Shown here: positions 12,343 to 50,407 of the stretch, piece after piece
Layout: the number at the start of each line of letters is the position of its first letter
Position numbering within the stretch: position 1 is the first letter of the stretch
From: Escherichia phage F2
Strand: one strand, 5' to 3'
Sequence record: NC_054913.1
Length of the DNA stretch: 64,000 nt
Made by a program: the position numbers and the translations under genes
Notes under the pieces: generated by a model
Seen by the model: only the letters and a program-made list of their open reading frames with translations
The model's database searches: none
Told to the model about the DNA's origin: nothing

Positions 12343-12816
12343 ATGTTATTATCAGGCGCAAAATATAAAGAAGAAAAACAAAAATTTTATGATGCACAGA
12401 ACGGTAAGTGTCCTATTTGCCACCGTGAATTAGACCCTGATGTTCAAGGTAACCATCTTGACCACGACCACGAATTAAACGGGCCAAAAGCAGGTAGAGT
12501 TCGTGGGTTACTCTGTAATCTGTGCAACGCAGCAGAAGGCCAAATGAAGCATAAGTTCAACCGTTCTGGTCTTAAAGGCCGTGATGTCGACTACCTAGAA
12601 TGGCTTGAAGCTCTTCTCGCTTATTTGAAACAAGATTATTCTGATAATAATATCCATCCTAATTTTGTTCCAGACAAAACTAAAGAGTTCTCAAGACTAG
12701 GTAAAGAGGAAATGATGACCGAGATGCTTCAAAGAGGATTTGAATATAATGAATCAGATACTAAAACACAATTAATAGCTTCATTCAAAAAGCAGCTTAG
12801 AAAGAGTTTAAAATGA
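12343..12816 (+). CDS. 49: recombination endonuclease VII (Holliday junction resolvase)
   Basis: 157 aa, near-identical to remembered T4 gp49 (CPICHRELD...HLDHDHELNGPKAG). Confidence 0.95.
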   Translation: MLLSGAKYKEEKQKFYDAQNGKCPICHRELDPDVQGNHLDHDHELNGPKAGRVRGLLCNLCNAAEGQMKHKFNRSGLKGRDVDYLEWLEALLAYLKQDYSDNNIHPNFVPDKTKEFSRLGKEEMMTEMLQRGFEYNESDTKTQLIASFKKQLRKSLK

Positions 12817-22786: not shown

Positions 22787-23040
22787 CTTTAGATGAATTT
22801 AACAATGCTGGGCTTGGGCTTGAAGTTGAAATGGACGTTAAAGATGACGATGGATTCGAGAACACTATCAAGTATTGGATTGAGCCATTATGCGTTGAAG
22901 GTAATGAAGTTAAAGCAGTTCATGTCTGCACCGACTGGGCTATTGAATTTAGCTTTAATATAATGGACAACGATACTCCTGGCTCTATTCTTAAAATGGC
23001 TGAAGCGTGTATTGAGGACGCGTATAATGACGAAGACTGA
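22783..23040 (+). CDS. hypothetical acidic protein
   Basis: ORF overlapping upstream stop. Confidence 0.5.
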   Translation: MTLDEFNNAGLGLEVEMDVKDDDGFENTIKYWIEPLCVEGNEVKAVHVCTDWAIEFSFNIMDNDTPGSILKMAEACIEDAYNDED

Positions 23041-23887
23041 TTATGAAACTCAAATTTATAAAATTCTTAAAACCTCCTTCCCTTCGTGGGAAGGACTTGA
23101 TGAGTATTTAAACTTTATAAAAACTAATTCCACTAATAAAGTAAAAGGACTGACTCAGGTTCACCATATACTACCAAAATCTATTTTTCCAGATTTTAAA
23201 ACATGTAAATGGAACTTGTGTCATTTAAGTCATTATAACCATTTTATTGCACATAGCATTTTGGCAAAAACTGGCAACCACAAGATGATTAACGCGCTTC
23301 AAAGAATGTATACCGGGCGATTTAATTTAAATTGTACAACGCATGAACTAAATAATATAGCCGAGGCGTATTCTTTAGAATTCGAAAATGTTTGTAAAGT
23401 TAATTCTATAAAAATGACATTATACTATTCCAATCAGGATAATAGAATTAAGATTAGTCAAGCTTTAAAAGCATGGTTTAAAAATCCGGAAAATTTAAAG
23501 AAACACAGAATTATGACAAGTTCAAAGGAATTTAAAGAAACCGTCTCTATTATGACCCAAAAGTGGTTTAGTGACCCTATTAATAAACAAAAACATTTGG
23601 ATGCTTGTCGTAAAATATCTAAAACAGCCGAATATAGAGAATCATTATCGGCTGGAGTTTCACGCAGTTGGAAAAATCCTAAAGTTAGAGACACTCAATT
23701 GAAATCTAGAAGAAAAGGATATCATTGGGAAAATTTTGATATGCTTTACGTTGAATGGGTTAAAATGAACAAACCTAAATATGTGACTTTTTCTAAAAAT
23801 TTAGTCAATTTAGGATATCCTATACAAAGTTCTTTACAGGCTTTAGTTTCTGAATTCATGAGGAAAAATTTAAGTGAAAACATTTAA
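23027..23887 (+). CDS. free-standing HNH homing endonuclease (Mob-like)
   Basis: HNH-like motif VHHILPKS...WNLCHLSHYNHFIAH; inserted between genes 47 and 46. Confidence 0.7.
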   Translation: MTKTDYETQIYKILKTSFPSWEGLDEYLNFIKTNSTNKVKGLTQVHHILPKSIFPDFKTCKWNLCHLSHYNHFIAHSILAKTGNHKMINALQRMYTGRFNLNCTTHELNNIAEAYSLEFENVCKVNSIKMTLYYSNQDNRIKISQALKAWFKNPENLKKHRIMTSSKEFKETVSIMTQKWFSDPINKQKHLDACRKISKTAEYRESLSAGVSRSWKNPKVRDTQLKSRRKGYHWENFDMLYVEWVKMNKPKYVTFSKNLVNLGYPIQSSLQALVSEFMRKNLSENI

Positions 23888-25562
23888 ATTAAATCGTGTT
23901 CGTTATAAAAATATAATGTCTGTTGGGCAAAATTTTATCGATATCCAATTAGATAAAGTCCAAAAGACCTTAATCACAGGTAAAAATGGTGGTGGTAAAT
24001 CTACGATGTTAGAAGCCATTACTTTCGGACTTTTCGGTAAACCATTTCGTGATGTTAAGAAAGGGCAAATCATTAATAGCACGAACAAGAAAGAGCTCTT
24101 AGTTGAGCTTTGGATGGAATTCGATGGTAAAAAATACTTCATTAAACGTGGCCAAAAACCCAATATTTTCGAAATCTCCGTTGACGGTGTTCGTCTTGAT
24201 GAATCTGCCAGCAGTCGTGACTTCCAAGAAGAATTTGAACGTAGCATCGGAATGTCATACGCGTCTTTTAAACAGATCGTTGTGCTTGGGACGGCAGGGT
24301 ATACCCCTTTCATGGCTCTTAGCACCCCTGCTCGCAGAAAGCTTGTTGAAGACCTTTTAGAAGTCGGCACACTCGCTGAAATGGATAAAATCAATAAGTC
24401 TCAAGTTCGAGAACTTAATTCCCAGGGACAAGTTCTCGATGCCAAGAAAGATGGTGTTATCCAACAAATTAAGATTTATAACGAGAATATCGAACGTCAA
24501 AAGAAATTATCTGGTGATAATGTAGCGCGTCTACAGAATATGTATGACGACCTAGCCAAAGAAGCTCGTTCATTAAAAGCAGAAATCGAAGAAGCTAATG
24601 AGAGACTACTTAATATAGTTCTTGACGAAGACCCTACTGAGGCATTCAACAAGATCGGACAAGAAGCATTCTTGATTAAATCTAAAATCGACTCATATAA
24701 CAAAGTTATTAAGATGTATCATGACGGTGGTACATGTCCTACTTGTGCATCACAGTTGCACCAGGGTGATCCTATTGTCTCTAAGATTACCGATAAGCTT
24801 CATGAATGTAATCACTCATTCGAGCAACTTACATGTCACAGAGATAATCTGAGTGTCCTAGTGGACGAATATAGAGCTAATGTTAAGACTAAACAGGACC
24901 TTGCATCTGATATTCGTACCAAGAAACAAGCAATGATTGCCACTATTGATAAAGCTAAGAAAGTTAAAGCTGCAATAGAACAAGCCTCGGCGGAATTTAT
25001 CGACCATGCTGATGAGATAGCTTTGCTTCAAAAAGAACTTGATAAAATCATTAAAACAAAATCAGATATCGTTCTTGAAAAATACCATCGTGGTATTATC
25101 ACAGATATGTTAAAAGATTCTGGTATTAAAGGTGCTATCATTAAAAAATATGTGCCTCTGTTCAACAAGCAGATTAACTATTATCTTAAAATCATGGAAG
25201 CTGATTACGTGTTTTCTATTGACGAAGAATTCAATGAATCTATAAAATCACGTGGTCGTGAAGATTTTAGCTATGCTTCATTTAGTCAAGGTGAAAAGGC
25301 ACGTATCGATATCGCATTGTTGTTTACATGGCGAGATATTGCTGAAAAGGTTTCTGGTGTTAGAATCAATACATTAATTATGGACGAAGTCATGGATTCC
25401 GCGACTGATTCTGAAGGTATTAAAGCTATTTCAACAATTCTTAACTCTCTAACCGATGCAAACGTGTTTATAATTAGCCACAGAGACCATGACCCACAAG
25501 CTTATGGACAACATTTGCAAATGAGCAAAGTTGGACGATTTACTGTAATGAAAGCCTCTTAA
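23874..25562 (+). CDS. 46: recombination ATPase subunit gp46 (Rad50/SbcC-like)
   Basis: Walker A GKNGGGKST, coiled coil, signature/Walker B at C-terminus; GTG start as in T4. Confidence 0.95.
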   Translation: MKTFKLNRVRYKNIMSVGQNFIDIQLDKVQKTLITGKNGGGKSTMLEAITFGLFGKPFRDVKKGQIINSTNKKELLVELWMEFDGKKYFIKRGQKPNIFEISVDGVRLDESASSRDFQEEFERSIGMSYASFKQIVVLGTAGYTPFMALSTPARRKLVEDLLEVGTLAEMDKINKSQVRELNSQGQVLDAKKDGVIQQIKIYNENIERQKKLSGDNVARLQNMYDDLAKEARSLKAEIEEANERLLNIVLDEDPTEAFNKIGQEAFLIKSKIDSYNKVIKMYHDGGTCPTCASQLHQGDPIVSKITDKLHECNHSFEQLTCHRDNLSVLVDEYRANVKTKQDLASDIRTKKQAMIATIDKAKKVKAAIEQASAEFIDHADEIALLQKELDKIIKTKSDIVLEKYHRGIITDMLKDSGIKGAIIKKYVPLFNKQINYYLKIMEADYVFSIDEEFNESIKSRGREDFSYASFSQGEKARIDIALLFTWRDIAEKVSGVRINTLIMDEVMDSATDSEGIKAISTILNSLTDANVFIISHRDHDPQAYGQHLQMSKVGRFTVMKAS

Positions 25563-26275
25563 TGAGGCTTATGTTTACAGTTATCAAAATGCCAACGATG
25601 CATATTAGCAGGGATCCCTATTTTATCGCAATGAGGACATTTAATTTTCTTGTCCTCTTTTTTCTTTCTGTTAGGATTTGATTTACAGAATTTTATATGC
25701 GGCTTTAACGCCGATAACTTAGTAGTTAAGCCACAAAACGGGCAAGAATCTTCTTTCCAAATTTTCGTGGCCATGGTTTTAATTATTTTATCCTTTGTTT
25801 CTTGATCAAGTTTTACTATTTTAGGTGTTGGACCTTGTTTACAATTATCGAAATGCCAACGTCGCATGTTTCCTTCAGTTCCAGTTAAACCACAATGTGG
25901 ACAGGTAATCTTTGGTTTATTTTTTGCCGACTCGGACATTTTCTTACGAGTTTCAGCAGTGAATTCTTTGTTCTTTTGAACTTCTTGATTCTTACGTCGA
26001 AGCCATCCAAATAATTTGTTTTTGCTTCTATCTGCTTTAGGAGATGAGATAGTCATCATACGAGCAGCATATATTAAAGAGGCATTATCTGGATGGATTT
26101 TTACCAACAGTTGATGTGCCAAATAATGTTCTTCTGGTGTTAAGTCTACTAAGTTTAAAGCATCATCACTTCCACCTAAACATTGTGGTATAATGTGATG
26201 ACGTTCTGTATAACCATCTAAACTTCTTGATTTAGCATTGGCGATAAGCTTTTCGTATATTGAGTTATAATTCAT
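25559..26275 (-). CDS. HNH homing endonuclease with three C-terminal zinc-finger repeats
   Basis: ERHHIIPQCLGG...LVDLTPEEHYLAH HNH motif; three CPHCG...RRWHFDNCK repeats; only large minus-strand gene in the block. Confidence 0.75.
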   Translation of the reverse strand: MNYNSIYEKLIANAKSRSLDGYTERHHIIPQCLGGSDDALNLVDLTPEEHYLAHQLLVKIHPDNASLIYAARMMTISSPKADRSKNKLFGWLRRKNQEVQKNKEFTAETRKKMSESAKNKPKITCPHCGLTGTEGNMRRWHFDNCKQGPTPKIVKLDQETKDKIIKTMATKIWKEDSCPFCGLTTKLSALKPHIKFCKSNPNRKKKEDKKIKCPHCDKIGIPANMHRWHFDNCKHKPH

Positions 26276-26320
26276 TTACTAAATCCTTATTTGATACAGC
26301 AACAGATAAATTGATAAACC

Positions 26321-26328
26321 TATTTATA
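26321..26328 (-). promoter_or_regulatory. T4-type late promoter TATAAATA (minus strand)
   Basis: TATAAATA on minus strand about 45 nt upstream of HNH gene ATG. Confidence 0.35.
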
Positions 26329-26352
26329 TTGCTTTAAACACGGAGATTTATA

Positions 26353-26544
26353 ATGGCGGAGTATTCAACTGGCCAACATCTTCTCGTTGTCCCTGAAATT
26401 AAAAAATATGTTTTGACCAATACGTTTTCAGGTGAAGAACATATTGTTACTGAACAAATGCTCAAATCTGCTTTTAAAGACGAGTATAATAAAATAATGT
26501 CTAATCGCAATTCCGCATGGACAGTTACCGACTTCTACGAATAA
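26353..26544 (+). CDS. hypothetical protein
   Basis: ORF with GGAG RBS. Confidence 0.5.
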   Translation: MAEYSTGQHLLVVPEIKKYVLTNTFSGEEHIVTEQMLKSAFKDEYNKIMSNRNSAWTVTDFYE

Positions 26545-26556
26545 GAGAGAAATAAT

Positions 26557-26973
26557 ATGTTTACTACTGCTAAAGGTTTCACTGCTGCTGATCTGAAAGT
26601 TACTTCTATCCGTACTGACGCTAACCCACATAACCATAATCGTGTTCGTAAAGCATGGGTCCTGCATTGTGATGACGCAAGTGCTAAAAAACTCCAATCT
26701 TTGCCACAAGAAACTCGTTTTATGATTTATGGTTTTATTGATAACGATGTATCTGATATGTGGATTCATCTGATGCGTAAGCACTATAAAGATTCTATTG
26801 AAGCCGGCGGAAAGATCGTTCTTGATAAAGATGGTTCTGAGCGTCTGGAAGATCTCTACTGTGTTGATGCCGACGAACAACTAATTGCAGCTGGCGAAAT
26901 TGTTGCTTCTAAAATTCCAGAATATATTGAATCACTGCCTGAAGCTATTAAAAAGCAAATGGTTGCTGCATAA
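26557..26973 (+). CDS. hypothetical protein (RpbA position between 46 and 45)
   Basis: Gene order only. Confidence 0.45.
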   Translation: MFTTAKGFTAADLKVTSIRTDANPHNHNRVRKAWVLHCDDASAKKLQSLPQETRFMIYGFIDNDVSDMWIHLMRKHYKDSIEAGGKIVLDKDGSERLEDLYCVDADEQLIAAGEIVASKIPEYIESLPEAIKKQMVAA

Positions 26974-27015
26974 TAAATTTGTTATAAACTTTGAATTGTC
27001 TTGAAAGGAAATAAA

Positions 27016-27702
27016 ATGAAACTGTCTAAAGATACTATCGCTATTCTGAAAAACTTTGCCTCTATTAACTCCGGTATTCTGCTGAGTCAAGGTAAATTTA
27101 TTATGACTCGTGCAGTTAATGGCACCACTTATGCGGAAGCAAATATCTCTGATGAAATTGATTTTGACGTAGCACTTTATGATTTGAATAGCTTCTTAAG
27201 CATTTTGAGTCTAGTGTCTGATGATGCTGAAATTTCAATGCACACCGATGGCAATATTAAAATTGCAGATACACGTTCCACGGTTTATTGGCCTGCCGCT
27301 GACAAGAGCACCATTGTTTTTCCTAATAAGCCAATTCAATTCCCAGTGGCTTCTGTGATTACTGAAATTAAAGCTGAAGACCTTCAACAATTGCTTCGAG
27401 TTTCACGTGGTCTTCAGATTGATACAATTGCTATTACAAATAAAGATGGTAAAATTGTTATCAATGGTTATAATAAAGTTGAAGATTCTGGTCTAACTCG
27501 TCCTAAGTATTCTTTGACTCTTACCGATTATGATGGTTCTAACAACTTTAACTTCGTAATCAATATGGCTAATATGAAAATCCAGCCAGGTAACTATAAA
27601 GTAATGTTGTGGGGAGCTGGTGATAAAGTTGCAGCCAAGTTTGAAAGCTCTCAAGTAAGTTATGTTATTGCGATGGAAGCCGATTCTACTCACGACTTCT
27701 AA
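27016..27702 (+). CDS. 45: sliding clamp gp45
   Basis: 228 aa, matches T4 gp45; ATG 27016 with AAGGAAA RBS. Confidence 0.9.
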   Translation: MKLSKDTIAILKNFASINSGILLSQGKFIMTRAVNGTTYAEANISDEIDFDVALYDLNSFLSILSLVSDDAEISMHTDGNIKIADTRSTVYWPAADKSTIVFPNKPIQFPVASVITEIKAEDLQQLLRVSRGLQIDTIAITNKDGKIVINGYNKVEDSGLTRPKYSLTLTDYDGSNNFNFVINMANMKIQPGNYKVMLWGAGDKVAAKFESSQVSYVIAMEADSTHDF

Positions 27703-27777
27703 GTCAAAGCTTTACGTTTATTGTGATACGATTATGGAGGAGAAATCCTCCAGTTTAATGATAATGAGGAAAATTAC

Positions 27778-28740
27778 ATGATTACTATCAATTCTAAAGA
27801 ACACATTCTAGAACAGAAATATCGTCCTTCTTCCATTGACGAATGTATTCTGCCTGCGTATGACCATGAAACATTCAAGTCTTTAGTATCTAAAGGAAAA
27901 CTTCCTCATATTATTTTGCACTCTCCTTCTCCTGGTACAGGTAAAACAACCGTAGCAAAAGCATTATGTAATGATATCAATGCCGAAATGATGTTCGTCA
28001 ACGGTTCTGATTGTAAGATTGATTTTGTGCGGGGTCCGTTAACCGCATTCGCTCGTTCAGTCTCAATGGAAGGAAAGCCTAAAGTTATTGTTATTGATGA
28101 ATTTGACCGTAGTGGCCTCGCCGAATCACAACGACACCTTCGTACGTTTATGGAAGAATTCTCTAGTAACTGCTCTATTGTTATTACTGCTAACAACATC
28201 GATGGAATTATTGAACCGTTACGTAGTCGTTGTCGAGTTATCGAATTCGGACGTCCAACCGAAGAAGATAAAATCTCTATGATGAAGAAAATGATTCATC
28301 GTATGGTTGAAATCTGTAAGAACGAAAATATCGAAATCGCTGATATGAAAGTTGTTGCAGCTCTGGTTAAAAAGAACTTCCCGGACTTTCGTCGCACAAT
28401 TGGTCAATTAGACCAGTACTCGTCTAAAGGTGTTCTTGATGCGGGTATTTTGTCTATCGTAACTAATGACCGTGGCACAGTCTCTGATGTTATCGAAGCA
28501 ATGAAGAACAAAGATATTAAACAGCTTCGTGCATTAGCTCCAAAATATGCCGCAGATTATTCATGGTTCATCGATAAATTAGTTTCAGAATGTTATGACC
28601 AAGTTGCACCTGGTAAAAGTATTATTTCGCTTTATGAAATTGCAGGCGAAAATAATAAGTTTCATGGATTAGCAAGTAATATTGAATTACATGTTATGTA
28701 TATGCTTCTTCAACTGACCTGCGAACTGACTTGGAAATAA
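27778..28740 (+). CDS. 44: clamp loader large subunit gp44
   Basis: Walker [13 protein letters not shown] box, SRC motif. Confidence 0.95.
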
Positions 28741-28741
28741 T

Positions 28742-29305
28742 ATGAACTTATTCGATGATGACGTCCAGCTTAACGAGCACCAAATTGCATGGAAGTCTAA
28801 TGACGCTGATGCGATTCAAAAATGTGCTGATATGTTTAAAGAAAAACCTGAGAATGAATTCTTTAAAATCATTAATGCTATTAATGAAAAGAAATCTATG
28901 TCAATTGCTCAGGTCGACTACTCAAAATTTATGGTTGAGAACTCATTATCCCAGTTCCCGGAATGTATGCCAGCTGTTTACATGATGAACTTAGTCGGTT
29001 CTGAATTAAGTGATGAAGCGCACTTCAACTATATGATGGCGGCAATTCCGCGTGGTCGTCGATTCTCTAAATGGGCTAAACTAGTCGAAGACACTTCAGA
29101 GTTACTAGTTATCAAACTGTTGATGAAACATTACACAATCAACATGAATGACGCTACCGAGTATAAGCGGCTCCTTGAAAAAAATAACAAGTTGCCAATA
29201 GTCCTTAAAGAACTGAAGGCCATGGTCACTGATGAATTTCTCAAAGAAGTTACCAAAAACGTGAAAGAACAAAAACAATTTAAAAAATTAGCATTGGAAT
29301 GGTAA
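28742..29305 (+). CDS. 62: clamp loader small subunit gp62
   Basis: 187 aa, position after gene 44. Confidence 0.8.
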
Positions 29306-37611: not shown

Positions 37612-38510
37612 TGGCTATTTTCCGCGTACCTATCTTGAGTATGCGGTCTTATGAAACTGGACAGTATGCTATCCTTAAGGATGGCAACTTCCAACTTCAT
37701 TTGCACCGTGCTAATCCGGGTGATGTGATTACATATCCACGTAATGCATCTGATATTAAAGAATGCGAACGTCTTTTCCCAGAATTTAAGTTTGTTCCAT
37801 TATGGTATAAAGATAACGCATATAACACTCGTAAATATTTCTGGTCTGAAAATGAATTTGTGGTTGATTCATTAATTGATTATTATGATTGTGATTTTCT
37901 AATCACAGATATCACTGGATATGACGGCAATTTTGACGTAGAATTCAATTTCAATATCACTGCAGACCCTAATAAACCACGTTTTTATATTGACGAATTC
38001 TTAAAAACCGACATGTTGTCTGTTAATCGTTCACTTCAAACTACTGTGTTGAATGAACGTCAAAAAGAAGTGCTGGTTAACGCAGGTGCAGATGGTAATA
38101 AGATTATCGTAACGCAGAAAGTTATACGTCCTTCCATCATGCAGCGTCTTGTAGGTGATTTGGCTCCTATTCATCTAGATGGTATTTTTCATCCATTTCG
38201 AATTAGTGACCCGTGCTATCGTTTTGAACAAGTGGTTGAATGTGCAATTCAATTAGGTCAACCGCTTTATATAACCGATCCAAATAATAGCTTCGACAGA
38301 AATAAGTATCCTGAAGAAGCGCTGATTCGAATTTTTAAACCAACTAAAACTGAGTACTATCAAATTCTTAAAGGACGTCCGAAGATTCAATACTTCGAAA
38401 ATCCTGAAGAAGTATTCCATCCAGGTCTTGGCGAGTTCATCTACTTTAATGCTTTAATTTCTTCGCCGTATAATATACCTAAATATGAAGATGTCGTAAT
38501 CGAGGAATAA
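37611..38510 (+). CDS. hypothetical protein in beta-gt position (candidate DNA sugar transferase)
   Basis: 299-aa ORF replacing T4 beta-gt between 42 and uvsX; no recognisable beta-gt similarity. Confidence 0.5.
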   Translation: MAIFRVPILSMRSYETGQYAILKDGNFQLHLHRANPGDVITYPRNASDIKECERLFPEFKFVPLWYKDNAYNTRKYFWSENEFVVDSLIDYYDCDFLITDITGYDGNFDVEFNFNITADPNKPRFYIDEFLKTDMLSVNRSLQTTVLNERQKEVLVNAGADGNKIIVTQKVIRPSIMQRLVGDLAPIHLDGIFHPFRISDPCYRFEQVVECAIQLGQPLYITDPNNSFDRNKYPEEALIRIFKPTKTEYYQILKGRPKIQYFENPEEVFHPGLGEFIYFNALISSPYNIPKYEDVVIEE

Positions 38511-45827: not shown

Positions 45828-46850
45828 ATGGCTGAATGGATAGATAATGAATTTGCTTATCGTGCGTTTTCTCACCTACCTCGTTTTAGACAAATCAATA
45901 ATTCAAGTACATTTAAATTAACATTTCGATGTCCAGTTTGTGGCGACTCCCAGACAGATGCAATGAAAGCTCGTGGATGGTATTATGGCGGTACTCCTGG
46001 TAATGTACATTGCTATAATTGTCAATACCACAATACAATTTCCGGATACTTAAAAGAGTATGATGAAGAGCTTTACCGCGAATATCTAATGGAAGTTCGT
46101 AAAGAAAAAGCTAGAATGGAACCAAAGATTGAAAAGGTTCCTGAACATAAACCAGAACCGGAGAAAAAGACTATAAATTCTTTGCCGTCTTGTTCTCGTC
46201 TGGACAAGCTGCCTGAAGAGCATCCTATTGTGAAATATGTTAAGTCTCGATGCATTCCTAAAGAATCATGGAACAGATTATGGTTCACATTAGAATGGCC
46301 TAAATTGGTCAACAAGATTCAACCAGGCACATATAAGAAAGAGATTCCAGAACCACGTTTAGTGATTCCTATTTTTAATAAAGACGGGAAGGCTGAGTCA
46401 TTCCAAGGACGTGCACTTCGTAAAGATGCTCCTCAGAAATATATCACTATTAAAGCGTTTGAGTCCGCAACAAAAATTTATGGTGTTGAACGTGTTAAGG
46501 AAGGGGACGTCTGGGTAATGGAAGGCCCTATTGATAGTTTATTCATACCCAATGCAATCGCTATTACAGGCGGCTCAATAGATTTAGATGTGGTACCATT
46601 TAAAGAACGTCGGGTATGGGTAATGGATAATGAACCTAGGCATCCAGATACTATAGCTCGCATGAAGCGATTAGTTGATGCAGGCGAACGTGTCATGTTC
46701 TGGGACCGAGCTCCGTGGAGATCAAAGGATGTGAATGATATGGTAATGAAAGAAAATGCAACACCACAAGAAATTTTAGAATATATGAAACAGAATATTT
46801 CAAGTGGGTTGCATGCTAAAATGAGATTATCTCGTTATTCGAAGATTTAA
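45828..46850 (+). CDS. 61: DNA primase gp61
   Basis: N-terminal zinc ribbon CPVCGDS...CYNC, TOPRIM-like C-terminal region; 340 aa. Confidence 0.9.
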   Translation: MAEWIDNEFAYRAFSHLPRFRQINNSSTFKLTFRCPVCGDSQTDAMKARGWYYGGTPGNVHCYNCQYHNTISGYLKEYDEELYREYLMEVRKEKARMEPKIEKVPEHKPEPEKKTINSLPSCSRLDKLPEEHPIVKYVKSRCIPKESWNRLWFTLEWPKLVNKIQPGTYKKEIPEPRLVIPIFNKDGKAESFQGRALRKDAPQKYITIKAFESATKIYGVERVKEGDVWVMEGPIDSLFIPNAIAITGGSIDLDVVPFKERRVWVMDNEPRHPDTIARMKRLVDAGERVMFWDRAPWRSKDVNDMVMKENATPQEILEYMKQNISSGLHAKMRLSRYSKI

Positions 46851-47044
46851 ACAAGCCCTATAATAGCAAAGGCCAAATCAACTACAGTATCCAATGGAAC
46901 AGAAGGAACTATAATACCATGGGCAACTAACAATGGTGCAATCCAGAAGTTCCATGAAATAATGCCACCTACAACTATTGCAGCGATAGCAGTTTTCTTT
47001 TTATTGCCTTTAATAGCGTTGATTAACGATGGAAGTTTAAACAT
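46847..47044 (-). CDS. small hypothetical membrane protein (minus strand)
   Basis: Strong RBS AAGGAG 5 nt upstream on minus strand; hydrophobic. Confidence 0.5.
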   Translation of the reverse strand: MFKLPSLINAIKGNKKKTAIAAIVVGGIISWNFWIAPLLVAHGIIVPSVPLDTVVDLAFAIIGLV

Positions 47045-48278: not shown

Positions 48279-48479
48279 ATGATGCCGATTCCTGATACAC
48301 ACGAAAAAAGTTGGGAATATATCGGCGACGGAATGATGGAAGAAGTTGTTCGTCCAAAAACAAAACAGGTTAATGCTTCAAGCTCTTCCGATTATAATCA
48401 TTCATACGTATCGTCTTGGCCTGGTGATTCCGGGTCAAGTTATTCTGATTGTGGTTCAAGCTCAGGGAGCTGCGAATGA
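48279..48479 (+). CDS. hypothetical Ser-rich protein
   Basis: ATG 48279 in track ORF 48156..48479. Confidence 0.4.
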   Translation: MMPIPDTHEKSWEYIGDGMMEEVVRPKTKQVNASSSSDYNHSYVSSWPGDSGSSYSDCGSSSGSCE

Positions 48480-50256: not shown

Positions 50257-50407
50257 CTGGATTGGAATAACCGGATGGAACTCAGAACCATTATAACACA
50301 TAAAAAATTAAAGCATTTTATGAAAAAGAGTGTACACTACCTGAGGGCATGATATTATAGACCTATCAGCTAAATGACCTAACGTCCGTAAGACAGAGGA
50401 AAATATT

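What the first reader, a model, noticed from the sequence alone, without database searches (positions are those of the whole stretch)
25559..26275. Minus-strand HNH endonuclease with three tandem zinc-finger repeats
It is the only sizeable gene on the opposite strand in a 64-kb co-directional block. It has an N-terminal HNH motif and three CPHC...RRWHFDNCK repeats, plus a TATAAATA late-promoter motif on its own strand. Convergent placement against gene 46 implies an independently acquired mobile gene.
Basis: seen in the sequence. Interest (0 to 1): 0.5.

Follow-up and report, generated by a model that had tools for sequence, protein, structure and literature searches.

The report
Free-standing HNH homing endonuclease gene
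This is an intact selfish "homing" nuclease gene sitting backwards between two replication/recombination genes of an RB69-like T4-type phage; about 8% of its close relatives carry it, it is already annotated as a homing endonuclease in other records, and it is a well-documented but fairly ordinary case.

Summary
The 238-codon minus-strand ORF at 25559-26275 is real. The window is an RB69-like Mosigvirus, and the ORF lies between gene 46 and gene 45.2.

**Protein.** The N-terminal domain is a MobE-type HNH domain, 44% identical to RB3 MobE. It is followed by three CX2CX11-12HX3C zinc fingers. Fingers 2 and 3 are homologous to the zinc-binding finger pair of I-TevIII that is required for DNA binding.

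**Insertion.** An 801-nt cassette replaces 65 nt of the empty allele, with identical junctions in 7 carriers. In the phage collection, 141 records have the intact empty site and 12 have the filled site.

**Distribution.** Same-site, same-orientation 238-aa homologues occur in Tequatrovirus (60 of 504 records), Dhakavirus and Gaprivervirus.

**Evidence of transfer and function.**
- RB33 shows a ~290-nt divergent tract in gene 46 next to the gene.
- ESCO47 has a near-identical cassette in a divergent right flank.
- dN/dS is 0.01-0.36.

**Regulatory parts.** The cassette carries a positionally conserved TATAAATA late promoter. This lies back-to-back with a MotA-type middle promoter, and a strong hairpin spans both stop codons.

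**Verdict.** It is a new member of a known kind: a Mob-like free-standing homing endonuclease, already annotated as such in several records but never characterised. No nuclease activity or target site has been shown.

The parts
25552..26352 (-). Inserted cassette: 801 nt present in carriers, replacing 65 nt of the empty allele (the last 3 codons plus stop of gene 46 and the 54-nt 46/45.2 intergenic region). A 3-nt extra codon follows the 45.2 ATG.
   Evidence: Junction comparison of 7 HNH+ and 8 HNH- Mosigviruses: 819 nt against 80 nt between fixed anchors. The megablast match of the empty genomes ends at window 25551.
25559..26275 (-). Endonuclease ORF, 238 aa
   Evidence: PHROG 655 'homing endonuclease', E 1.4e-66. 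2588 homologues. All 11 copies examined are intact 238-codon ORFs, with dN/dS 0.01-0.36.
25961..26275 (-). N-terminal HNH (beta-beta-alpha-metal) catalytic domain, residues 1-105; H26 H27 N41 H50 H54
   Evidence: 44% identity to RB3 MobE residues 1-94, E 4e-23. The five residues are invariant. AF2 domain model has pLDDT 95 with beta 24-27, beta 42-45, helix 47-60. The top Foldseek hits are nearly all HNH domains, but with non-significant E-values.
25841..25903 (-). Zinc finger 1, residues 125-145: CPHCGLTGTEGNMRRWHFDNC (CX2CX12HX3C)
   Evidence: AF2 gives beta-beta-alpha at 122-144.
25685..25744 (-). Zinc finger 2, residues 178-197: CPFCGLTTKLSALKPHIKFC (CX2CX11HX3C)
   Evidence: Aligns to I-TevIII finger 1.
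25577..25639 (-). Zinc finger 3, residues 213-233: CPHCDKIGIPANMHRWHFDNC (CX2CX12HX3C)
   Evidence: All four ligands are invariant in 94 homologues. Aligns to I-TevIII finger 2.
26321..26328 (-). T4-type late promoter motif TATAAATA for the endonuclease gene
   Evidence: only minus-strand copy in the window. Positionally conserved in Bp7, FB and RB33. Function is inferred.
26284..26288 (-). Shine-Dalgarno AAGGA, 8 nt before the ATG
   Evidence: Read from the sequence. An equivalent AAGG(A/G) is present in four other genera-level homologues.
26330..26354 (+). MotA-box middle promoter TGCTTTA-N12-TATAAT carried at the cassette's right end. Its -10 overlaps the 45.2 ATG, and it abuts the late promoter on the other strand.
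   Evidence: 5 matches in the window against 0.02 expected by chance. Exactly one copy at the 46/45.2 junction in every Mosigvirus locus, filled or empty. Function is inferred.
25537..25585 (.). Two-tier hairpin spanning both convergent stop codons. The inner stem, 25552-25558 pairing with 25564-70, starts at the first base of the insert.
   Evidence: dG -19.9 kcal/mol (+ strand) and -18.6 (- strand), z about -6.2, 0 of 200 shuffles as stable. Also strong in the Dhakavirus and Gaprivervirus homologues (z -4.4, -4.2) and weak in RB33. No T-run, so it is not a canonical terminator.
23874..25562 (+). Gene 46 (Rad50/SbcC-like), left flank. Its last three codons are rewritten by the cassette (MTVS* to MKAS*).
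26353..26544 (+). Gene 45.2, right flank. It starts MAEYS in carriers and MEYS in the empty allele.

Best explanation
This is a functional free-standing homing endonuclease gene of the T4 'Mob-like' HNH class.

Shown:
- An 801-nt cassette occupies one exact site between genes 46 and 45.2 in a minority of RB69-like phages.
- The protein combines a MobE-type HNH catalytic domain with three I-TevIII-type CCHC zinc fingers.
- The protein is under purifying selection.

Inferred:
- The gene is transcribed late, from its own TATAAATA promoter, antisense to the early/middle 46-45 transcription unit.
- In a mixed infection with a relative that has the empty site, the fingers bind a conserved sequence around the gene 46 3' end and the 46/45.2 middle promoter.
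- The HNH domain then nicks or cuts nearby.
- T4-type recombination-dependent repair copies the cassette, and sometimes adjacent gene 46 sequence, from the carrier genome.
- The carrier allele is immune because the cassette has replaced 65 nt of the site.
- The cassette restores what it displaced: a stop for gene 46, a MotA middle promoter, and an SD plus ATG for 45.2.
For: Homology:
- PHROG 655 'homing endonuclease', E 1.4e-66.
- 44% identity, E 4e-23, to RB3 MobE over the HNH domain.
- 38% identity, E 1e-10, to the I-TevIII finger pair. Its CX2CX12-13HX3C motifs bind zinc and are needed for DNA binding (PMC1865063).
- HNH residues and the last finger's ligands are invariant in 94 homologues.
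- AF2 pLDDT 93-95, with a beta-beta-alpha HNH core and beta-beta-alpha fingers.

Polymorphism:
- 141 empty against 12 filled records in Mosigvirus, with exact junctions.
- 60 of 504 Tequatrovirus records are filled.
- Same site and orientation in Dhakavirus and Gaprivervirus.

Transfer:
- In RB33 against an HNH-minus Tequatrovirus, gene 46 is 96-100% identical over nt 101-1400 (87% in the first 100 nt), then falls to 85, 75 and 75% over the last ~290 nt next to the gene.
- ESCO47 has a 99% identical protein, but gp45.2 is 78% and RpbA 86% identical.
- The similarity ranking is reversed between host gene and endonuclease. gp46 of the window is 82% identical to RB33 and 66% to FB. The endonuclease is 58% identical to RB33 and 72% to FB.

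Function: dN/dS 0.01-0.36, and all copies are intact.

Promoter conservation.
Against: - No cleavage, nicking or biased inheritance has been shown for this family. Three literature searches found no paper on it.
- Pfam and NCBIfam give nothing above their cut-offs.
- Within Mosigvirus, no flanking SNP is fixed between carriers and non-carriers, so no co-conversion tract is visible there.
- TATAAATA is not enriched by count.
- The patchy distribution could partly reflect repeated loss rather than gain.
Confidence: 0.8

Rival explanations
1. It is a once-mobile endonuclease that no longer homes. It persists because the cassette now supplies essential parts (the gene 46 stop, the middle promoter for rpbA/45, the 45.2 start), or because the protein is kept as a DNA-binding regulator of the adjacent promoters in the way I-TevI autorepresses.
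For: The cassette carries the only MotA-type promoter of the 46/45.2 junction. That promoter abuts the late promoter. Part of the empty-site sequence (GCTTTAA..CACG..TATAATG) is retained right beside the late promoter. Embedded host promoters are known to favour retention of HEGs, and I-TevI autorepresses through an operator that resembles its homing site (PMC2988022).
Against: All HNH catalytic residues are invariant, and the HNH domain has the lowest dN/dS, 0.08-0.14, in most between-genus comparisons. There are recent-transfer signatures in ESCO47 and RB33. Occupancy of only 8-12% is not what a fixed domesticated gene would show.
Confidence: 0.1
2. It is a nuclease used mainly against competitors or the host (marker exclusion or superinfection interference). 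It cuts related phage DNA at sites other than its own insertion site, so its spread is a by-product.
For: MobE nicks inside a neighbouring conserved gene rather than at its insertion point, and it mobilises unrelated DNA in trans (PMC2790892). The neighbourhood is rich in other HEG-like inserts.
Against: The same exact site and orientation in four genera argues that the target is at or very near the 46/45.2 junction. Nothing computed here points to another target.
Confidence: 0.07
3. It is a chance ORF, or a decaying pseudogene with no product.
For: No curated Pfam or NCBIfam family is matched above cut-off. Several deposited records leave it unannotated or 'hypothetical'.
Against: 2588 homologues. 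Eleven intact 238-codon copies, with dN/dS well below 1. A conserved SD and promoter. AF2 pLDDT 93.
Confidence: 0.01

Closest known systems
MobE of phage T4/RB3 (free-standing HNH homing endonuclease between nrdA and nrdB)
   Same: The N-terminal 95 residues are 44% identical, with the same MNYxxIY...HHIxPxCxGGxDD..NLV.LT..EH..AH signature. Both are free-standing genes between conserved genes of a T4-type phage, with patchy distribution.
   Different: MobE has no zinc fingers; its C-terminal half is unrelated. MobE is co-oriented with its neighbours and lacks its own promoter (PMC2988022). This gene is antisense and has a late-promoter motif. The insertion site differs.
I-TevIII of phage RB3 (nrdB-intron HNH endonuclease with two zinc fingers)
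   Same: Fingers 2-3 are 38% identical to the I-TevIII finger pair, including the inter-finger NPNR linker. The motif is the same CX2CX12-13HX3C that was shown to bind zinc and to be required for DNA binding and dimerisation (PMC1865063). phrog_12324 matches at 3e-7.
   Different: I-TevIII is intron-encoded, has two fingers rather than three, and its HNH domain is not alignable with this one. Finger 2 here has an 11-residue spacer.
segD of T4 (free-standing GIY-YIG gene antisense to genes 23/24)
   Same: A free-standing endonuclease gene in the opposite transcriptional orientation to its essential neighbours (PMC2988022).
   Different: It belongs to a different nuclease family. segD has no identifiable promoter of its own, whereas this gene has a conserved TATAAATA.
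'Mob-like HNH' genes counted in RB32 and other T4 relatives (Petrov et al. 2010, Table 5); GenBank annotations 'homing endonuclease' (a20, NHEP10, Bp7) and 'site-specific intron-like DNA endonuclease' (RB33)
   Same: Same gene family and same locus. RB33 is classified under Tequatrovirus RB32. That RB32's two mob-like genes include this one is my inference.
   Different: These are annotations only. No activity, target or regulation has been described. RB69 itself is listed as having no HEGs (PMC2993671), so the window's phage differs from the type phage in this respect.

Membership tests
Free-standing HNH homing endonuclease (T4 Mob-like) | HNH / beta-beta-alpha-metal catalytic motif with conserved His-Asn-His residues | tested here: met
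   H26 H27 N41 H50 H54 are invariant in 94 homologues. 44% identity to the MobE HNH domain. AF2 gives a beta-beta-alpha core. The top structural hits are HNH domains, but statistically weak.
Free-standing HNH homing endonuclease (T4 Mob-like) | Not inside an intron or intein; lies between conserved genes | tested here: met
   It lies between gene 46 and 45.2, both of which are intact.
Free-standing HNH homing endonuclease (T4 Mob-like) | Presence/absence polymorphism at one fixed site among close relatives | tested here: met
   141 empty against 12 filled records, with identical junctions. 60 of 504 filled in Tequatrovirus.
Free-standing HNH homing endonuclease (T4 Mob-like) | Signs of transfer with co-conversion of flanking DNA | tested here: met
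   RB33 has a ~290-nt divergent gene 46 tract next to the gene. ESCO47 has divergent flanks around a near-identical cassette, and the similarity ranking is reversed between endonuclease and flanks. The signal is not visible within most Mosigvirus carriers.
Free-standing HNH homing endonuclease (T4 Mob-like) | Site-specific nick or break in the empty allele, and super-Mendelian inheritance in crosses | not testable with these tools
   This needs phage crosses and cleavage mapping.
I-TevIII-type zinc-finger DNA-binding domain | Tandem CX2CX12-13HX3C motifs | tested here: met
   Fingers 1 and 3 have X12, and finger 2 has X11. Among 120 homologues the spacers are 11, 12 or 13 residues (23, 165 and 6 motifs).
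I-TevIII-type zinc-finger DNA-binding domain | Sequence homology to the I-TevIII finger pair | tested here: met
   BLASTP E 1e-10, 38% identity over 74 aa. phrog_12324 matches profile positions 197-265 of 269.
I-TevIII-type zinc-finger DNA-binding domain | Zinc occupancy, DNA binding and dimerisation through the fingers | not testable with these tools
   Shown only for I-TevIII itself (PMC1865063).
I-TevIII (as a whole protein / intron-encoded endonuclease) | Encoded in a group I intron, with an I-TevIII-type HNH domain | tested here: not met
   The gene is free-standing, and no alignment exists between the two N-terminal domains. It is not a member; only the finger module is shared.
Pfam HNH families / NUMOD3 | Score above the gathering threshold | tested here: not met
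   The best HNH model, HNH_5, scores 13.5 bits against a 27.5 cut-off. There is no NUMOD3 match among the 25 Pfam families listed of 27, although many homologues carry PF07460. NCBIfam has no hit above cut-off.
Terminase-associated HNH endonuclease of cos phages | Adjacent to terminase/cos; [CxxC]2 zinc site inside the HNH core | tested here: not met
   The neighbours are genes 46 and 45.2, and the HNH core lacks paired CxxC. This family was considered only because PMC3592412 surfaced in the literature search.

The most novel reading that the evidence does not exclude
The cassette may be more than a selfish gene. The endonuclease could double as a regulator. A remnant of its own homing site (GCTTTAA..CACG..TATAATG, which is the MotA middle promoter) sits 1 nt from its late promoter. 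Finger binding there could therefore repress its own late promoter, the rpbA/45 middle promoter, or both, as I-TevI does at its operator. The finger array would also be a modular specificity module, with 1-7 fingers among homologues and a finger 2-3 swap in mar005p1, so that it can be exchanged to retarget the enzyme.
Probability: 0.12. Interest if true: 0.5.

Novelty: new member of a known kind. Interest (0 to 1): 0.27.

Why it matters
It gives a cleanly defined, uncharacterised homing endonuclease with:
- an exact insertion site;
- abundant natural empty-site genomes, including RB69 itself, for crosses;
- a hybrid architecture (MobE-type nuclease plus three I-TevIII-type fingers) that bears on how these enzymes swap DNA-binding modules.

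It also shows how an antisense insertion can rebuild the host signals it displaces. For genome annotation it matters because several deposited records leave the gene unannotated or 'hypothetical', and Pfam and NCBIfam have no model that detects it. None of this would surprise a specialist in T4 mobile elements.

Tried and rejected
- **Domain-only model.** Its top hits were nearly all HNH domains, but with E of at least 0.4. I use this as consistency, not proof.
- **PDB sequence search.** Nothing significant.
- **Pfam and NCBIfam.** Nothing above cut-off.
- **IMG/VR scan.** It returned mostly distant relatives in unrelated contexts and was of little use for the synteny question.
- **Co-conversion within Mosigvirus.** No SNP is fixed between carriers and non-carriers. 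Only a synonymous CTT to TTG change at 25516-25518 occurs in 4 of 7 carriers.
- **Terminator role for the 3' hairpin.** The consensus scan finds no terminator and there is no T-run, so I leave its function open.
- **Literature.** Searches for a description of a homing endonuclease between genes 46 and 45.2 found nothing.
- **Numbering coincidence.** H26/H27 coincide in number with I-TevIII's catalytic H26/H27, but the two N-terminal domains do not align.

Full report
**What is there.** The window is an RB69-like T4-type phage (Mosigvirus). The best match over 23000-28800 is phage G2469 at 97.9%. The region reads: gene 47, 46.2, a Mob-like ORF, gene 46 (23874-25562), the flagged ORF (25559-26275, minus strand, 238 aa), 45.2 (26353-26544), rpbA, 45, 44. 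A greedy ORF map shows the flagged ORF is the only non-overlapped minus-strand ORF of at least 100 aa in the 64 kb. Two small minus-strand candidates remain, of 65 and 61 aa. The stop codons of gene 46 and the flagged ORF share the tetranucleotide TTAA at 25559-25562.

**The protein.**
- PHROGs assigns it to phrog_655 'homing endonuclease' (E 1.4e-66). The C-terminal 72 residues also match phrog_12324 'intron-like DNA endonuclease' over profile positions 197-265 of 269.
- Pfam and NCBIfam give nothing above their cut-offs.
- I fetched RB3's experimentally studied I-TevIII and its MobE and compared them directly.
  - Residues 1-95 are 44% identical to MobE (E 4e-23).
  - Residues 163-234 (fingers 2 and 3) are 38% identical to the I-TevIII finger pair (E 1e-10).
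  - The I-TevIII HNH domain does not align with this one, and MobE has no fingers.
  - The protein therefore combines two modules known separately.
- The fingers are C125-C145, C178-C197 and C213-C233, with the pattern CX2CX12HX3C, CX2CX11HX3C and CX2CX12HX3C. For I-TevIII this motif was shown to hold one zinc each and to be required for DNA binding and dimerisation (PMC1865063).
- In an alignment of 94 homologues, H26, H27, N41, H50, H54 and the four ligands of the last finger are invariant.
- Among the 120 best homologues the number of such fingers is 1 (80 proteins), 2 (12), 3 (26), 5 (1) or 7 (1). Many carry NUMOD3 motifs instead.
- AlphaFold2 gives a confident model (pLDDT 93). It has a beta-beta-alpha HNH core (strands 24-27 and 42-45, helix 47-60) and beta-beta-alpha fingers, two of them preceded by a helix.

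**Is it an insertion?** Yes.
- RB69 and pEK20 have gene 46, a 54-nt spacer, then 45.2.
- Comparing 7 carriers with 8 non-carriers, the junctions are identical. To the left everything matches up to window 25551 (...ACTGTAATGA). To the right it matches from the 45.2 ATG at 26353.
- Carriers have 801 nt where non-carriers have 65 nt, plus one extra codon after the 45.2 ATG.
- The cassette rewrites the last three codons of gene 46 (MTVS* becomes MKAS*).
- A census with junction-spanning queries finds 141 records with the intact empty site and 12 with the filled junction.

**Distribution beyond the genus.** A 238-aa homologue sits at the same place in the same antisense orientation in:
- Dhakavirus Bp7 and FB;
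- Gaprivervirus PSD2001;
- Tequatrovirus RB33. In that genus 60 of 504 records have the filled form.

Petrov et al. list RB69 as having no homing endonuclease genes and RB32 as having two 'mob-like HNH' genes (PMC2993671). The family has therefore been counted but not studied. Searches for a description of this locus found none.

**Evidence for movement and function.**
- **RB33 tract.** Against an HNH-minus Tequatrovirus, gene 46 is 96-100% identical over nt 101-1400 (87% in the first 100 nt). Identity then falls to 85, 75 and 75% in the last ~290 nt next to the endonuclease gene. By megablast the right flank, within 45.2, is 100% identical over the ~110 nt matched. This is what co-conversion from a divergent donor would leave.
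- **ESCO47.** Its endonuclease is 99% identical to the window's, but gp45.2 is 78% and RpbA 86% identical, with the change starting at the junction.
- **Reversed ranking.** gp46 and gp45 of the window are closest to RB33 (82% and 79%) and furthest from FB (66% and 57%). The endonuclease is closest to FB (72%) and furthest from RB33 (58%). This rests on four taxa only and is suggestive.
- **Selection.** All 11 copies examined are intact, and dN/dS is 0.01-0.36.
- **No tract within Mosigvirus.** No flank SNP is fixed between carriers and non-carriers there, so any tract is very short.

**Signals carried by the cassette.**
- TATAAATA lies at 26321-26328 (minus strand), starting 53 nt before the ATG, and AAGGA lies 8 nt before the ATG.
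  - The motif is not enriched by count: 5 in the window against 7.8 expected.
  - It is nevertheless the only minus-strand copy, and it recurs 41-44 nt upstream of the ATG in Bp7, FB and RB33.
- One base away on the plus strand is TGCTTTA-N12-TATAAT (26330-26354), a MotA-box middle-promoter pattern.
  - It has 5 matches in the window against 0.02 expected.
  - Every Mosigvirus locus, filled or empty, has exactly one at this junction.
  - In the filled allele its -10 overlaps the 45.2 start codon. A transcript from it would probably miss 45.2 and serve rpbA and 45. This is inference.
- At the other end, a two-tier hairpin (25537-25585) spans both stop codons. Its stability is -19.9 kcal/mol, z -6.2. 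It starts at the first inserted base and recurs in the Dhakavirus and Gaprivervirus homologues.
  - It has no T-run and is not called a terminator, so its role is open.

**Most likely mechanism.**
- The enzyme is expressed late.
- Its fingers bind conserved sequence at the empty site. The blocks GTTGGnCGATTTACTGTAATG, GCTTTAA, TATAAT and ATGGAGnAnAACATGGA are shared by the RB69-type and T4-type empty sites.
- The MobE-type HNH domain nicks or cuts nearby. MobE was found to nick, and I-TevIII to make a double-strand break as a dimer (PMC2790892, PMC1865063).
- Recombinational repair then copies the cassette from the carrier.
- Everything after 'expressed late' is inferred from the homologues.

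**Verdict.** This is a new, uncharacterised member of a well-known kind, already labelled 'homing endonuclease' in several GenBank records. Interest is modest.

Noticed in passing
window 23027-23887 (+) (TTG alternative start at 23012): A second Mob-type HNH gene (286 aa; phrog_655 E 3e-31; 29% identical to the flagged protein over the HNH core) occupies the place of gene 46.1 between 46.2 and 46, overlapping both neighbours. It is also polymorphic: present in pEK20, SQ17, AV112 and G2469, while RB69, ST0 and a20 have 46.1 instead. Submitters label it 'MobD-like' or 'MobE'.
   Followed up: partly
L092 3921-4810; L100 3582-4469; L004 4656-5234: Other relatives carry extra ORFs at further sites in the same gene cluster: two ORFs between rpbA and 45 in G2285, a 295-aa ORF between rpbA and 45 in SHBML-50-1, and a 192-aa ORF between 45 and 44 in Bp7. 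The 47-44 replication/recombination cluster looks like a hot spot for insertions. I did not identify these ORFs.
   Followed up: no
L088 (Mosigvirus mar005p1, OZ035759) about 2277-2993: This copy of the endonuclease is a mosaic. Over residues 1-105 it is 97% identical to the window's copy, and the DNA match extends through finger 1. From residue 151 to the end, which covers fingers 2-3, it is only 50% identical. All zinc ligands are kept and the insertion site is the same. This suggests exchange of the DNA-binding module.
   Followed up: partly
window 46847-47044 (-): A 65-aa hydrophobic minus-strand ORF lies convergent with the primase gene (61) and overlaps its stop by 4 nt, the same geometry as the flagged gene. 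The segment is conserved in 152 Mosigvirus records, and a 'hypothetical protein' is annotated there in several. It is a likely second, small, opposite-strand gene in the window.
   Followed up: partly
window 25516-25518: A synonymous Leu codon change, CTT to TTG, lies 34-36 nt left of the junction in gene 46. It is found in 4 of 7 carriers and 0 of 8 non-carriers. It could be hitch-hiking or a target-site change, and is unexplained.
   Followed up: partly
L003 4517-5258; L004 818-2318: Gene 45 is annotated as two overlapping pieces in G2469, and gene 46 as two pieces in Bp7. These are either frameshifts or sequencing errors in the deposited records.
   Followed up: no
window 12725-12750 (+), 38450-38474 (+), 48374-48398 (+), 50290-50315 (-): These are four further exact matches to the MotA-box middle-promoter pattern TGCTTYA-N11-13-TATAAT, against 0.02 expected by chance. 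One of them is on the minus strand.
   Followed up: no
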